From NCBI RefSeq assembly GCF_902652985.1, contig NC_047018.1, positions 13,454,001-13,518,000 of the forward strand: a stretch of DNA of 64,000 nt. Direction: 5' to 3'. This stretch comes from Pecten maximus. Taxonomy: Eukaryota. The first letter of the stretch is position 1; each line of letters opens with the position of its first letter. Position numbers: made by a program. This document shows, one piece after another, positions 6,001 through 18,000 of the stretch.

Positions 6001-9000
6001 ATAGATGGCAATTAAAATTCTAATATTTTGTATATGTATACATCTATATCCAAATACACATATACGTGTTCAGAATGTCAGATCAGCATGCATATGCTTC
6101 CTATCAGTAGAAAATATTAATGTTGACAAGTAGGGTACCTGTATCAGCATGTCATGTAATTTAACTTGTGACCTCTCTAAACTAGAATAAATAGTAAAAT
6201 GACTTGTGTTTTGGACGTGTGTCGTATCTATGCGATGCTGTATGGACTGACAGGAACACTTACTATTCCGGAGCTCTCCGAGGTCGATAATATCACTATT
6301 TCACAATATTACAAAACAAAATGTAAAATATACACAAAGTTTTATTACTAAGATCAATAGGTAACATAAATGATATCAACATGATTTGGTAAATACTACA
6401 CTAATTCATAGAATTGTAGATTTTCTATCTAGAAAACACACTTTAAAATGCTGAATTTTATATAATCACAAAAGGGTTGATGTCTTGTGGTTTACACACT
6501 AATAACAGTCGTATCCACTTTACCAGAAAATACATTTGTAATAACCAGCTTACAAATGTAGGTAATTTGGATGGATTATCTTGATCGCTTGCTTGAGTTA
6601 ATAAAGGCGTACCATTTAATTTCAGTTATTATAATATGAACGCTGTTACAAACAGTGGTATACAGATATATATAATATAATAGTTGATAAGATCAACAAT
6701 GCATGTTATAAAATGTGCATGCGAGAATATACAGAGGCATGAAAGTATTCATAATATGTTGATGAAATTTGGTTTGATTGAACAATAATTATATATATAA
6801 TCATAATAAAGTACTTATTCAGAGACGCGAGCTCAATTCGAGAGGGTGATTATCTTGCACAGTAAGACAACTTTTATCATGTCCAACCTCGGTTAATGTT
6901 GTATCTTTTGTATGGGGATTTCTGGACTGAGAAACAGAACTGTTAGATAAAGTAGGGTCTAATATTGTATGACCTCTCGATGAATTAATGCCCCTTTTCT
7001 TGTATGCAATATAGAGTTCGTAAACCCTCTTATTGCATACAAACGAGAGCATGATGAACACGCCTTGTCCAGCGAGCAAAACGATAAATAGATATACAAA
7101 AACATCCTGATTGAAAATTTCAGCAATAAAACCAAACAGCCAGGCCACTCCTGTCAGAGTTGAAAGCTTTACATAAATTAAAAATCGTTTCGAGTGATGG
7201 CGACAGGTTGAGGACCTGGACATATCCGGAAGCTGGCTGACTTTAACTATTACAATACAGAACATTACAATATTTGCTACAACGAGTACCATAACCGGTA
7301 GTGTGAAACTATACAATAGAGCATTCGTGTCGTTAATAAAACATATCCGGATTCCGTAACCAGACCTTCCGTTAGTTACGACGCTGTACACACTTCGACC
7401 CAGGACGAATAATGCGCTGCCGCCGTAACTGTAAACAAGAGATATTACAAAATGGCGTCTTTTTTCTTCCTCTGTCAAAACGTATTGCCTGTCTAAATGA
7501 TTAAATACGCGGAACATATGTATTGAACATACGTTCATGATAAATACACTTGCTAACATTGTCAAATGGATTGTAATTCCAAATACTTCACACAAGAAAC
7601 CGATCTTGACAGCACCGGCTCCAAAGGTAAACAGGACATGAGCGACAGTCAGTGTTGCGCACAAAGCCATTGTGAAAAGTCCAGGAAGTGTCCTTAAAAC
7701 TGGAAACAGAATATACGTTACCATAGTTACGATAAGACATATAACTGACAAACTTGAACACACGAGAGACACTAATACTTTACCTAAATCTTCTTCACGT
7801 GAAACAATGTTATCTGGCAAATGAGATGCAAAAAATGTATCTGCACAAATCAGGACAGACGACATATCGTCAGAGAAGATGCATTTTTCTGGCTGAAAAC
7901 AGGAGTTATGCATATCAAAGCACACCTTGTTAGAGTGACGTGTTACATTATAATCATTCAGAGATATGTTCACATGTGGACATAAAAAGGTTGGTACCAA
8001 CCGTGATACCCACGGTTTGAAAGGACAATAGCTAATTTCATCATAAGTTTCAATATTCATTTTATCTCCATTTGAAGGATCTCTGTATTGTCTGTCTAGC
8101 GGAAATACTATCCTAAATTTGTTGGAACTAGATTCGAACTCATAAAAATTACCGCCAACTACTTCCGGTTTTAAGTCAGTACAAAGCAAAGGTCCTGTAT
8201 TGGTTCCGGATTCAATATGGAGCGCAGATGTATCCAGAAGGTTCTCTGCTACTTCCTTGGGATCGTGGTAATCTTGCACAAAGAGTTCCACGTGAATGAC
8301 TAGATAGTCTGTATTGATTATTGTCTCACTGGAACAGTTGTTACTAGGAAACAGGACAGTTAAACCACAGACATATTTATAATAACCAATAAGTATCAAG
8401 TGCGTTTTCACATATTCCTGGATCAGACGAGGTGTAAGGCGAAGACACAGGTCACAATTCGTATGGTAGGATGGCAATGTATTGAATCTAAGGAACATCT
8501 CGTATCTCTGCGAAGCTACATTGCTGAAGGCATTTTCACACACTCCATTGCTGTATCTGAACGGTGGTGAGCAGGTGATCTCGCGGCAAATGTTCTGTAA
8601 CATAAATACAATGATGCAATATACGGGTTTGCAACAGTCAGTAGTCAGTTAATATCGGGATATTATACATCTTTAATTCAACTCTGCCTTTTTTACTCGG
8701 TAAAAAAAGGAACTGGTAAAGTCGACGTCCGCACTCCCCCACCCCCCAGCTCATGTATTATGTCTCTTGAGATATCTAAAATGAAATGCATATCCATTCT
8801 ATATAGCCCGTTTTACAAATATTTTCGATTTACAAATATCACCGTCGGTATCAATTATCCGGCCTTTATCGGTATAATATCTCCGGCCTATATCGGTATA
8901 ATATATCCGGCCTGTATTGGTATACTATCTCCGGCCTGTATCGGTATAAGATCTTCGGCCTGTATCGGTATAATATCTCCGGCCTGTATCGGTATAAGAT

Positions 9001-15000: not shown

Positions 15001-18000
15001 TAAATTTGACACGTATAAGGTAAGGACGTTAGTGCTCTTATCAACAGAACTTTACAACAAATCTTATTCATGGGTGATACTGATAAATTTTGTCAGAGGA
15101 ACACATTGTTTTCTGGGGTTATAATGGTAGATTTTGTCAGAGGAACACCTTGTTTTCTGAGGTGATAATGATAGATTTTGTCGCAGGAACAAATGACATT
15201 CTTGGGTGATATGATGATAGGTTTTGTTGTAAAAGCAAATGTCTTTTTGAGGTGATAATGATAGGTTTTGTCTGATAAACAAATATCTTTCTGGAGTCAT
15301 AATGATAGATTTTGTCTGAGGGACAAATGTAAATTGTATATTGAATTATTACCTGTACTATACGAATAGACGTTCCTTTTCAACCAGTATTACATTTTAT
15401 ATATGTCACGTTCACCAGACAACTGACAATTGACGTGCATACAGTGCTCACTTGTATCAGTTGGGGAGATAAAGGCCAATTACATCCAATACCTGTAATA
15501 TGAACAACTTCAATTTAGCGTATTGCGGGTACAATCCACTAGGCTATTATATAATGATTATCCTTGACAAGAGAATATCTAAACGGTCAATTTACAAATA
15601 ACTCGTCACTCCCGTCTACTTCTGTTGATTTTGTCAAGGTTTATTTGTAATACACTGCACTTATATTTCAACACTGAATGATATATATAATTAATAGGGC
15701 TAACGTCTAATCCAATTCTCTGTCAATAAAAAATAACATATTTCCTCACACACGTGGTGTAAAAACCGCACGGGTCATTTATATTCCGGGTGTTCACACT
15801 TTTCAATTGAATACGTAAATTATTATAACTAGAAACAGATTAATGCGTACCTATTTCATATATTGTTTATAGAAGCTGATATGTGTGCACTTCTGTACTA
15901 AAGACTATTTTTTAATTATATTACAGAATATTTGCCGCGAGATCACCTGCTCACCACCGTTTAGATACAGCAATGGAGTGTGTGAGAATGCCTTCAGCAA
16001 TGTAGCTTCGCAGAGATACGAGATGTTCCTTAGATTCAATACATTGCCATCCTACCATACGAATTGTGACCTGTGTCTTCGCCTTTCACCTCGTCTGATC
16101 CAGGAATATGTGAAAACGCACTTGATACTTATTGGTTATTATAAACATGTCTGTGGTTTAACTGTCCTGTTTCCTAGTAACAACTGTTCTAGTGAAACAA
16201 TAGTCAATACAAGCTATCTAGTCATTCACCTGGAATTCTTTATACAAAATTTCCATGATCCCATTGATGTTGCCAGGCGTTTCCTTAACCCATCTGTATT
16301 TCTGCCTGAATCACTTGAAGGAGTTACTGTTTGTATTGACTTAAAACCAAAAGTACTTGGCGGTAAATTTTATGACTTTGAATATGGTTTCAGCGAATAT
16401 GATTACGTTTATCCACTAGACAGACAATACAGAGATCCTTCAAATGGAGATAAAATGAATATTGAAACTTATGATGAAATTAGCTATTGTCCTTTCAAAC
16501 CGTGGGTATCACGGTTGGTACCAGCCTTTTTATGTCCACATGTGAACATATCTCTGAATGAATATAATGTAACACGTCACTCTAACAAGGTGTGTTTTGA
16601 TATGCATAACTCCTGTTTTCAGCCAGAGGAATGCATCTTCTCTGACGATATGTCATCTGTCTTGATTTGTGCTGATACATTTTTTGCGTCTTATTTGCCA
16701 AATAACATTGTTCCACGTGAAGAAGATTTAGGTAAAGTATTAGTGTCTCTCGTGTGCTCAAGTTTGTCAGTTATATGTCTCATCGTTACTATGGTAACGT
16801 ATATTCTATTTCCAGTTTTAAGGACACTTCCTGGCCTTTTCACAATGGCTTTGTGCGCAACACTGACTGTCGCTCATGTACTGTTTACCTTTGGAGCCGG
16901 TGCTGTCAAGATCGGTTTCTTGTGTGAAGTATTTGGAATTACAATCCATTTGACAATGTTAACAAGTGTATTTCTTATGAACGTATGCTCAGTACATATG
17001 TTCCGCGTATTCAATCATTTAGACAGGCAATATGTTTTGACTGCGGAAGAAAAAAGACGCCATTTTGTGATATCTCTTGTTTATAGTTACGGCGGCAGCG
17101 CATTATTCGTCCTGGGTCGAAGTGTGTACAGCGTCGTAACTAACGGAAGGTCTGGTTACGGAATCCGGATATGTTTTATAAACGACACGAATGCTCTATT
17201 GTATAGTTTCACACTACCGGTTATGGTACTCGTTGTAGCAAATATTGTAATGTTCTGTATTGTAATAGTTAAAGTCAGCCAGCTTCCGGATATGTCCAGG
17301 TCCTCAACCTGTCGCCATCACTCAAAGCGATTTTTGATTTATGTAAAGCTTTCAACTCTGACAGGAGTGGCCTGGCTGTTTGGTTTTATTGCTGAAATTT
17401 CCAATCAGGATGTTTTTGTATATCTTTTTATCGTTTTGCTCGCTGGACAAGGCGTGTTCATCATGCTTTCGTTTGTATGCAATAAGAGGGTTTATGAACT
17501 CTATATTGCATACAAGAAAAGGGGCATTAACCAAACGATTTCGAGAGGTCATACAATGCTAGACACTTCTTTATCCAACAGCTCTGTTTCTCAGTTAAGA
17601 AAACCTCATACCAGAGAACCAACGATATCGACTGAGATTGACACACACTGCCATTCTGTGCGAGATAACATCCCTCTCGAATTCAGCACGAATCTCTGAC
17701 GACGTTAAGCGTTATTTTGGTACATTTTAAATGTGTGCTATCGCCTTGACGGCACCGGTAACTTAATTATGACGACACCTTTAGTAAAAATATCATTAGT
17801 TAACCAACAAAAGTTGTAACACACCCTGTGACCTTGAATATGATTCAAGGTCTTTTCTTCGCAGACTTTTTCAAGCCTGTCTTAGGAACCTGCCAGTCAA
17901 ATGCCATGACTATCCATCGTATCCATGGTTTCTTTGTTTTTATCGCCAGGGTCATTTTGAGGAGGGGGGTCTGATTGTAATAGTTGGTGATTACTTCACA

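What the first reader, a model, noticed from the sequence alone, without database searches (positions are those of the whole stretch)
6819..17699. Head-to-head GPCR pair with exon-limited near identity and sharply bounded divergent islands
Seen: A and B are almost identical over most coding DNA, including synonymous sites, while their introns and flanks show no similarity by eye beyond the splice signals. Divergence is concentrated in three islands: the end of exon 1 (B ~14795-15019), an exon-2 ectodomain patch (B ~16210-16412, A ~8100-8310) and the C-tail. Inference: an old inverted duplication is being homogenised by gene conversion while selection protects specificity regions, as in immune and chemosensory receptor families. 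A simple recent duplication or haplotype artefact would also share introns.
Basis: partly seen in the sequence, partly recalled or inferred. Interest (0 to 1): 0.72.

Follow-up and report, generated by a model that had tools for sequence, protein, structure and literature searches.

The report
Inverted receptor gene pair homogenised in exons
Two neighbouring, oppositely oriented adhesion-type receptor genes of an invertebrate are about 97% alike over four fifths of their coding DNA but unrelated in introns and flanks, the expected footprint of gene conversion between old duplicates and a known kind of event.

Summary
Gene A (- strand, exons 11629-10586 and 8594-6819) and gene B (+ strand, exons 13970-15019 and 15927-17699) are intact, head-to-head family-B (7tm_2) receptors whose 7TM is closest to adhesion GPCRs. 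DNA similarity is confined to the exons. Introns and flanks score no better than shuffles. 735 of 932 aligned codons form a 96.8% identical backbone with dS 0.11. A scan using only silent differences finds the same three islands (P 0.003, 0.003, 0.017). Constraint on silent sites is excluded: four-fold sites are saturated against a third paralogue C at 23560-26573, and codon bias is weak. The best explanation is old inverted duplicates whose exons were homogenised by interlocus gene conversion, with tracts stopping where homology is lost. The claim that selection protects specificity regions is not shown: island dN/dS is 0.30, 0.83 and 0.57, and none is above 1. No orthologues or reads were available. 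This is a clean new instance of a known process, of moderate interest.

The parts
6819..8594 (-). Gene A coding exon 2 (591 codons + stop): juxtamembrane ectodomain, 7TM, C-tail
   Evidence: Open frame and AG acceptor. Pfam 7tm_2 at residues 293-532 of the 609-aa stop-to-stop ORF. Residues 274-526 of the exon product align to the ADGRL3 7TM.
8595..10585 (-). Gene A intron (1991 bp) with a 24-bp minisatellite at 8845-9523
   Evidence: GT..AG ends. Tandem array. No similarity to the B intron.
10586..11629 (-). Gene A coding exon 1 (348 codons): signal peptide and Cys-rich ectodomain
   Evidence: ATG, open frame and GT donor after AAG. No Pfam hit at E<=1. Nearest ESM Atlas clusters carry DUF8401/SMB (a lead only).
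11630..13969 (.). Spacer between the two ATGs (2340 bp), with a 53/158-bp minisatellite at 11919-12695. Only the last ~30 nt before each ATG are alike, including an acceptor-like TTTTCAG.
13970..15019 (+). Gene B coding exon 1 (350 codons)
15020..15926 (+). Gene B intron (907 bp) with a 44-bp tandem repeat at 15072-15329
15927..17699 (+). Gene B coding exon 2 (590 codons + stop)
10586..10816 (-). Island 1 in A (end of exon 1). Partner in B is 14795-15019. 58.6% nt identity, dS 1.56. Gly-rich linker in A, Pro/Ser-rich in B. Contains a conserved 31-nt block (10692-10662).
14795..15019 (+). Island 1 in B
   Evidence: Silent-only scan interval 14834-15016: 13 of 25 against 18 of 273, P 0.003.
8100..8318 (-). 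Island 2 in A (ectodomain patch about 110-180 residues before TM1). 68.5% nt identity, dS 0.47, dN/dS 0.83.
16203..16415 (+). Island 2 in B
   Evidence: Silent-only scan 16254-16415: 9 of 24 against 31 of 471, P 0.017.
6822..6983 (-). Island 3 in A (cytoplasmic C-tail after TM7). 76.9% nt identity, dS 0.42.
17532..17696 (+). Island 3 in B
   Evidence: Silent-only scan 17559-17669: 10 of 22 against 40 of 495, P 0.003.
23560..26573 (+). Third family member C (exon 1 23560-24564, 308-bp intron, exon 2 24873-26573). About 31-32% aa identity to A, with the same intron position and phase. Used as outgroup.

Best explanation
A and B are old inverted duplicates of a two-coding-exon, adhesion-type family-B GPCR gene. 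Their non-coding DNA has diverged beyond recognition. About 79% of their coding DNA was later made alike again by interlocus (non-allelic) gene conversion, last effective about 0.11 silent substitutions per site ago.

Inferred mechanism: a break in one copy is repaired from the copy 2-9 kb away on the same chromosome. Heteroduplex can form only where the copies are still similar, so tracts stop at or within about 30 nt of exon edges. They also stop at three internal segments that had already diverged too far, or where hybrids are disfavoured. Each round keeps the converted parts convertible and leaves the islands further behind. Because the copies are inverted, a crossover would flip the spacer rather than delete a gene, so the pair is stable.

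Shown here: the exon-limited similarity, the 4- to 14-fold step in silent divergence, the absence of silent-site constraint, and that both genes are intact with backbone dN/dS 0.12.

Inferred, not shown: the conversion process itself, its direction, its timing, and why the islands escape.
For: Only exonic HSPs link the loci. Intron and downstream pairs score no better than shuffles, and the upstream excess is not colinear. A substitution-only control would still be detected at d=0.6 (score 164) and lost at d=1.0 (score 19). Backbone: 735 codons, dS 0.111 (0.08-0.15), dN/dS 0.12. Islands: dS 1.56 (0.81-3.1), 0.47 (0.27-0.78) and 0.42 (0.18-0.80). At unchanged residues, silent differences are 48 of 714 codons in the backbone against 33 of 101 in the islands (P 4e-12). 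Four-fold sites differ at 19 of 286 against 17 of 42 (P 4e-8). An unsupervised scan on silent differences alone recovers the three islands and nothing more; further rounds give P 0.19 and 0.57. Silent sites are free to change in this family: A-C differ at 66 of 98 four-fold sites and B-C at 68 of 95; ENC is 54-60. The intron position and phase are shared with the distant paralogue C, so the intron is ancestral and neither copy is a retrocopy. Reviews describe conversion as mostly exonic because introns lose the needed homology (PMC3966223, passages of section 4.2) and describe divergence peaks inside converted genes (PMC3924837, passages of section 3.2).
Against: There are only two sequences plus a saturated outgroup, so no region-specific trees and no polarity. 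The backbone shows no internal age structure (longest identical run 47 codons, permutation P 0.42; dispersion P 0.053). One burst of conversion fits as well as ongoing conversion. Islands 2 and 3 (dS about 0.45) are younger than island 1 and than the unalignable introns, which needs either several epochs or noisy estimates. The islands were first drawn from all differences, although the silent-only scan is independent of amino-acid change. The middle of island 1 is a low-complexity linker whose alignment is uncertain, so dS 1.56 is rough. No reads were available, so assembly or polishing effects are not excluded.
Confidence: 0.75

Rival explanations
1. The islands are not relics. They were pasted into A or B by conversion from other, unseen family members elsewhere in the genome. 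The loci are still old and the backbone still homogenised.
For: In island 1, where A and B differ, A matches C at 10 sites and B at 2 (two-sided binomial P about 0.04, computed by hand), so B carries the odd segment. Island 1 dS (1.56) is as saturated as A-C. A third paralogue lies 6 kb away, so the family is multi-copy.
Against: C itself is not the donor: it has about 30% aa identity and no DNA hit. Islands 2 and 3 are symmetric against C (4 v 5; 1 v 4). No other copy is in the window, and no genome was available to search.
Confidence: 0.1
2. A recent inverted duplication (dS about 0.1) was followed by very fast change in three coding patches and complete turnover of introns and flanks.
For: Backbone dS is low (0.11). 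Both introns and the spacer hold minisatellites that show rapid local turnover. Island 1 is partly a low-complexity linker.
Against: Silent and four-fold sites in the islands are about 6-fold more diverged than in the backbone, which faster protein evolution does not explain. At d about 0.1 the 907-bp intron would score about 800, but the observed score is 14. Identity drops to random within about 20-30 nt of every exon edge.
Confidence: 0.04
3. Assembly or polishing artefact: reads from one copy cross-mapped to the other in the exons and pulled the consensus together, or two haplotypes were laid down as an inverted pair.
For: No reads could be examined. Invertebrate assemblies with high heterozygosity are prone to such errors (general knowledge).
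Against: The backbone is not identical: 71 differences in 2205 nt, spread evenly, with a longest identical run of 47 codons. Cross-mapping would give long perfect tracts. Haplotypes would share introns and would not be 59-77% identical in three patches. The two copies have different intron lengths, different repeats and an inverted order.
Confidence: 0.04
4. Transcript-templated (RNA or cDNA) repair homogenised the exons, which would explain why similarity ends at the exon edges.
For: Similarity stops within about 20-30 nt of the three exon edges where the backbone reaches an edge.
Against: Similarity runs 17-29 nt past the two acceptor-side edges into sequence a mature mRNA would lack (HSP ends; 17 of 20 and 14 of 20), though splice-signal constraint could mimic this. 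The intron is retained in both copies. Loss of homology in the introns explains the edges without a new mechanism (PMC3966223).
Confidence: 0.05
5. Old duplicates with no conversion: the backbone is held alike by selection on silent sites (codon use, splicing enhancers, RNA structure).
For: None found.
Against: Four-fold sites at residues shared with C are saturated (66 of 98 and 68 of 95 differ). ENC is 54-60 and GC3 is 0.37-0.41, near the non-coding GC.
Confidence: 0.02

Closest known systems
Divergence peaks inside paralogues that undergo gene conversion (human red/green opsin; RHD/RHCE). Source: review PMC3924837, passages of section 3.2 and its reference list.
   Same: Linked paralogues with low divergence over most of their length and local peaks of divergence. 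The peaks are read as places that conversion does not erase.
   Different: In the opsins the introns are homogenised and an exon stands out. Here the introns are unalignable and the peaks lie inside exons. No dN/dS above 1 and no known functional sites here.
Divergently oriented paralogue pairs kept as inverted repeats in Caenorhabditis (PMC1803023, abstract and passages).
   Same: Head-to-head paralogues that stay alike within a species, with gene conversion proposed as the cause. In one pair only the 5' part stays identical while the C-terminal parts diverge.
   Different: There the arms include the intergenic DNA and are near-perfect. Here the spacer shares only about 30 nt next to each ATG, and the backbone is 96.8% identical.
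GOT1 paralogues of the copepod Tigriopus californicus (PMC3728101; only the start of the abstract was seen, in the listings).
   Same: [quoted passage not shown]
   Different: A different gene family. The details of that paper were not read.
Exon-biased conversion in Caenorhabditis paralogues (review PMC3966223, passages of sections 2, 4.2 and 4.3).
   Same: States that conversion is mostly reported for exons because fast-diverging introns fall below the homology threshold, and that it occurs in both direct and inverted adjacent pairs.
   Different: The worm introns are tiny and are often converted too. Here the introns are 0.9-2 kb and wholly unrelated.
Adhesion GPCRs (ADGRL3, ADGRL2, ADGRE5, ADGRG2 and others), and the amphioxus adhesion-GPCR expansion with Somatomedin B domains (PMC2246102, passages).
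   Same: 7tm_2 fold. All 20 PDB sequence hits are adhesion GPCRs, the best being 7sf7_A at E 9e-13. There is a long Cys-rich ectodomain. The nearest ESM Atlas clusters for exon 1 are named SMB/DUF8401.
   Different: No GPS, GAIN or SMB Pfam match at E<=1. The ectodomain fold is unknown because both AlphaFold models failed.

Membership tests
Interlocus gene conversion mosaic (concerted evolution of linked paralogues) | Tracts with much lower silent divergence than other tracts of the same gene pair | tested here: met
   dS 0.11 against 0.42-1.56. Four-fold sites 19 of 286 against 17 of 42, P 4e-8. The silent-only scan finds three intervals, P 0.003-0.017.
Interlocus gene conversion mosaic (concerted evolution of linked paralogues) | Loci older than the similar tracts: unconverted DNA (introns, flanks) far more diverged | tested here: met
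   No non-coding HSP. Intron and downstream Smith-Waterman scores are at shuffle level and the upstream excess is not colinear; a d=0.6 control is still detected.
Interlocus gene conversion mosaic (concerted evolution of linked paralogues) | Low silent divergence not explained by constraint on silent sites | tested here: met
   Against C, 66 of 98 and 68 of 95 four-fold sites differ. ENC 54-60.
Interlocus gene conversion mosaic (concerted evolution of linked paralogues) | Region-specific trees with orthologues: paralogues group by species in converted tracts and by orthology elsewhere | not testable with these tools
   No eukaryotic genome collection was open. The protein searches that could give orthologues were closed.
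Interlocus gene conversion mosaic (concerted evolution of linked paralogues) | Polymorphisms shared between the copies, and read support for two loci | not testable with these tools
   No reads or population data.
Selection-maintained divergence peaks (RHD/RHCE or opsin type) | Evidence that the peaks are under diversifying or divergent selection (dN/dS above 1 or known functional differences) | tested here: not met
   dN/dS 0.30 (0.13-0.62), 0.83 (0.43-1.67) and 0.57 (0.23-1.52). A pairwise average over a patch is a blunt test.
Recent inverted segmental duplication / palindrome | Arms alignable through introns and spacer at about the same identity as the exons | tested here: not met
Adhesion GPCR (class B2) | Family-B seven-helix domain closest to adhesion receptors | tested here: met
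   Pfam 7tm_2, E 1.7e-14 and 3.6e-15. All 20 PDB hits are adhesion GPCRs.
Adhesion GPCR (class B2) | GAIN domain with GPS motif directly before TM1 | tested here: inconclusive
   No GPS/GAIN Pfam match at E<=1 in the 290 residues before TM1. The structure model was unusable (pLDDT 32). A conserved CAD-x-[FY]-FA about 20-45 residues before TM1 in A, B and C recalls the GPS end but lacks the His-Leu-Thr/Ser cleavage triad; the motif is recalled, not from a call.
Adhesion GPCR (class B2) | Long modular extracellular region | tested here: met
   About 620 residues precede TM1 (348 from exon 1 plus about 273 from exon 2), with many conserved Cys. The domains are unnamed by Pfam.

The most novel reading that the evidence does not exclude
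The exons were homogenised through a transcript-templated route (RNA or cDNA used as the repair template in the germ line). That would explain why similarity ends at exon edges in a gene pair whose introns are retained. This would be a natural animal example of exon-precise, RNA-guided concerted evolution. The evidence does not exclude it, but nothing requires it. The 17-29 nt of similarity on the intron side of both acceptors leans against it.
Probability: 0.05. Interest if true: 0.75.

Novelty: new member of a known kind. Interest (0 to 1): 0.35.

Why it matters
Conversion makes old duplicates look young, so dating this receptor family by dS would be wrong by roughly an order of magnitude. 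The pair is also a compact natural chimera series. It has the same 7TM core and most of the same ectodomain, but two different ectodomain patches and different C-tails. That points to which segments to swap when asking what these uncharacterised invertebrate adhesion-type receptors bind and how they signal. It does not open a new question: the process and its signatures are textbook.

Tried and rejected
Structure prediction of the exon-1 and exon-2 products, each with a 3-row alignment (A, B, C), gave mean pLDDT 28.0 and 32.4. The models are unusable, so no fold search was run and the islands could not be placed on a fold.

The ESM Atlas search with the exon-2 ectodomain (residues 1-270) gave no usable hit. 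Pfam at E<=1 names nothing in exon 1 or in the ectodomain part of exon 2. Rfam at gathering thresholds found 0 matches in the 64 kb.

It was rewritten in vectorised form and ran.

I considered a hidden short intron inside island 1, because an acceptor-like TTTGCAG lies in the conserved 31-nt block. I rejected it for three reasons. All three paralogues keep that stretch open and in the same frame. They share a Cys within it. Residues S and F just upstream of the AG are conserved even in C.

I looked for age structure within the backbone, as a sign of repeated conversion, and found none. GC3 gives no sign of GC-biased conversion: backbone 0.39-0.40 against islands 0.27-0.41.

A search for DUF8401 / PF28443 in the paper library found 0 papers.

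Complex prediction, the prokaryotic genome-contig collection, and the phage, plasmid and E. coli collections were not used, because they do not bear on a eukaryotic paralogue pair.
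Full report
**Scope and limits.** The window has no N and about 37% G+C, and it is rich in minisatellites. The nearest ESM Atlas clusters for one exon product come from arthropods and molluscs. The gene models are spliced, so every search, fold and alignment was done exon by exon. The joined coding sequence or protein was never built or searched, so nothing here rests on a full-length product. 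As a result, orthologues, other paralogues in the same genome and read support all stayed unchecked. The Somatomedin B alignments in Additional file 2 of PMC2246102 might bear on the domain lead below.

**What is there.** Stop-to-stop ORFs and the sequence at their ends give two genes of identical build.
- Gene A lies on the minus strand: coding exon 1 at 11629-10586 (348 codons), a 1991-bp GT-AG intron, and exon 2 at 8594-6819 (591 codons plus stop).
- Gene B lies on the plus strand: exon 1 at 13970-15019 (350 codons), a 907-bp intron, and exon 2 at 15927-17699.
- In both genes the intron is in phase 0, after the same ...DTYK codon.
- The two ATGs face away from each other, 2340 bp apart.
- Each ATG is preceded by an acceptor-like TTTTCAG 8 nt upstream, so a 5'UTR exon probably lies in the spacer. 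This is inferred; no RNA data were available.

Exon 2 of both genes carries Pfam 7tm_2 (E 1.7e-14 and 3.6e-15). A sequence search of the PDB returns 20 hits at E<=0.01, and all 20 are adhesion GPCRs. The best is ADGRL3 (7sf7_A, E 9e-13), aligned over residues 274-526 of the exon-2 product. Pfam names nothing in exon 1 or in the 290 residues before TM1, even at E<=1. The receptors are therefore family-B, adhesion-like in the 7TM, with an ectodomain of about 620 residues, rich in Cys, of unnamed fold and without a detectable GPS/GAIN. A third member, C, lies at 23560-26573 on the plus strand. It has the same intron position and phase and about 31-32% amino-acid identity to A.

**Check of the observation.**
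- blastn of the A locus against the B locus (7.9 and 7.6 kb, word size 11) gives three HSPs, all exonic: 94.1% over 905 nt in exon 1, a 31-nt block inside the divergent end of exon 1, and 90.7% over 1804 nt in exon 2.
- A self-comparison of the whole window adds nothing.
- Local alignment scores are 14 for the introns, 20 for the upstream halves of the spacer and 16 for 1.5 kb downstream. The shuffle means are 15.0, 14.0 and 14.6. The upstream score of 20 is above its highest shuffle (17), but the aligned pieces are not colinear with the ATGs.
- As a positive control, the B intron was compared with substituted copies of itself. The scores were 813 at d=0.07, 484 at d=0.3, 164 at d=0.6 and 19 at d=1.0. 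The non-coding DNA therefore behaves as if at least about 1 substitution per site apart, or turned over by indels.
- In 20-nt bins anchored at the exon edges, identity is 17/20 just before the ATG and 14/20 just before exon 2. It is 3-10 of 20 in every bin further out, after the donor and after the stop.

**Divergence within the exons.** 735 of 932 aligned codons (79%) form a backbone that is 96.8% identical (71 differences in 2205 nt). Three islands are 58.6%, 68.5% and 76.9% identical.

| Island | Gene A | Gene B | Location |
|---|---|---|---|
| 1 | 10586-10816 | 14795-15019 | end of exon 1 |
| 2 | 8100-8318 | 16203-16415 | ectodomain patch in exon 2 |
| 3 | 6822-6983 | 17532-17696 | C-tail |

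Only the 3' edge of island 2 is abrupt. The other edges grade over about 10-25 codons.

**Is the step real at neutral sites?** Nei-Gojobori estimates with bootstrap are:

| Segment | Codons | dS (95% interval) | dN/dS (95% interval) |
|---|---|---|---|
| Backbone | 735 | 0.111 (0.08-0.15) | 0.12 |
| Island 1 | 74 | 1.56 (0.81-3.1) | 0.30 (0.13-0.62) |
| Island 2 | 71 | 0.47 (0.27-0.78) | 0.83 (0.43-1.67) |
| Island 3 | 52 | 0.42 (0.18-0.80) | 0.57 (0.23-1.52) |

High dN can inflate such dS values, so I also counted only codons whose amino acid is unchanged. Silent differences occur at 48 of 714 such codons in the backbone and at 33 of 101 in the islands (Fisher P 4e-12). Four-fold sites differ at 19 of 286 against 17 of 42 (P 4e-8).

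A scan that sees only these silent differences, with no prior borders, picks out three intervals:
- exon-1 columns 289-352: 13 of 25 against 18 of 273, permutation P 0.003;
- exon-2 columns 547-585: 10 of 22 against 40 of 495, P 0.003;
- exon-2 columns 110-165: 9 of 24 against 31 of 471, P 0.017.

After these are removed, nothing further stands out (P 0.19 in exon 1, 0.57 in exon 2). Within the backbone the differences are spread as chance would have them. The longest identical run is 47 codons (P 0.42) and the index of dispersion is 1.31 (P 0.053).

**Controls against other causes of a low backbone dS.** Silent sites in this family are not constrained. At residues shared with C, 66 of 98 (A-C) and 68 of 95 (B-C) four-fold sites differ, which is saturation. 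The effective number of codons is 54-60. GC3 (0.37-0.41) is close to the non-coding G+C (0.29-0.38).

**Explanation.** The simplest history that fits every count has two steps.
1. An old inverted duplication, as old as island 1 and the unalignable introns suggest.
2. Interlocus gene conversion that re-homogenised most of the coding DNA about 0.11 silent substitutions per site ago.

Tracts end at exon edges because the introns no longer offer the homology that heteroduplex formation needs. This reason is given in the literature for the exon bias of conversion (PMC3966223, passages of section 4.2). The three islands are segments that were not converted.

Whether selection keeps them apart is open. 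No island has dN/dS above 1. Islands 2 and 3 are also the least conserved parts against C (13 of 59 and 5 of 35 identical, against 149 of 442 in the exon-2 backbone), as expected of weakly constrained segments that simply drifted past the homology threshold.

Island 1 differs. It is no less conserved against C than the exon-1 backbone: A-C 27 of 66 and B-C 19 of 66 identical, against 74 and 75 of 252. Where A and B differ, A agrees with C at 10 sites and B at 2 (binomial P about 0.04, by hand). B's version is therefore the derived or imported one. Its centre is a linker that is Gly-rich in A and Pro/Ser-rich in B.

The different island ages (1.56 against about 0.45) suggest more than one epoch of conversion, but the intervals are wide.

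**Rivals.**
- A recent duplication with local acceleration fails on the silent-site step and on the introns.
- Silent-site constraint fails.
- An assembly or polishing artefact is unlikely. The backbone carries 71 evenly spread differences, and the copies differ in intron length, repeats and orientation. It cannot be excluded without reads.
- Islands imported from unseen paralogues remain possible, above all for island 1.
- A transcript-templated route would also give exon-limited similarity. However, similarity continues 17-29 nt on the intron side of both acceptors and the intron is kept, so nothing calls for it.

**Comparison with what is known.** Mosaics of converted sequence and divergence peaks are well described: red/green opsin and RHD/RHCE (PMC3924837, passages and reference list) and copepod GOT1 (PMC3728101, start of abstract only). 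Head-to-head paralogue pairs kept alike in Caenorhabditis are described in PMC1803023 (abstract and passages). The present pair differs from the opsin case in that the introns are the diverged part. It differs from the worm palindromes in that the spacer has no arms.

On the protein side, adhesion GPCRs with Somatomedin B domains were reported as an amphioxus expansion (PMC2246102, passages). The Atlas lead (DUF8401/SMB clusters, score 0.94, recognition below the tool's usual level) points the same way for exon 1, but Pfam did not confirm it. DUF8401 and PF28443 appear in none of the papers searched.

**Verdict.** The gene-conversion reading is well supported within the limits of one genome. 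The selection reading is not shown. This is a new, clean example of a known process in an uncharacterised receptor family. Interest 0.35.

Noticed in passing
window 23560-26573 (+): A third member of the same receptor family (C): two coding exons, a 308-bp intron at the same codon and phase, 7tm_2 at E 4e-16, and about 31-32% identity to A. The locus is a small cluster, not just a pair.
   Followed up: partly
window 11637-11643 (-), 13956-13962 (+), about 23532-23542 (+): All three genes have an acceptor-like pyrimidine tract plus CAG 8-18 nt upstream of the ATG. This suggests a 5'UTR exon and intron. For A and B those exons would lie in the shared 2.3-kb spacer, possibly with a bidirectional promoter.
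   Followed up: no
window 10683-10657 (-), 14922-14948 (+), C near 24460-24490 (+): A motif [TM]-S-F-[AT]-A-[LI]-[FL]-[ND]-F is conserved in A, B and C at the end of exon 1, inside island 1. It resembles (recalled, not from a call) the tethered-agonist sequence that follows the GPS cleavage site of adhesion GPCRs, yet it lies about 300 residues before TM1. A second conserved CAD-x-[FY]-FA lies about 20-45 residues before TM1.
   Followed up: partly
window 14018-14029 (+): B has a 4-codon insertion (PDSI) at the end of the signal-peptide-like segment, inside an otherwise identical tract.
   Followed up: no
window 115-1342, 2207-5909, 8845-9523, 11919-12695, 15072-15329, 18823-19952: Dense tandem arrays: 324 bp x 3.8, 37 bp x 99 (3.7 kb), 24 bp x 28.5 (in the A intron), 53/158 bp (in the A-B spacer), 44 bp x 5.8 (in the B intron) and 47 bp x 24. 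Each is private to its place; none is shared between the A and B loci.
   Followed up: partly
window 33744-34601 (-), 36613-37068 (-), 49118-49462 (+), 57776-58933 (+): ORFs with Pfam CABIT matches. Two are above the curated cut-off (E 1.3e-10 and 2.7e-07) and two are below it (E 0.0011 and 0.0081). They look like the exons of two diverged CABIT-domain (Themis-like) genes that are also arranged head to head, about 12 kb apart.
   Followed up: partly
window 41261-41781 and 46415-47613: Long open frames made of repeated short units (for example SLSPCPNLSLPRI...). They are most likely minisatellites that stay open by chance, not genes.
   Followed up: no
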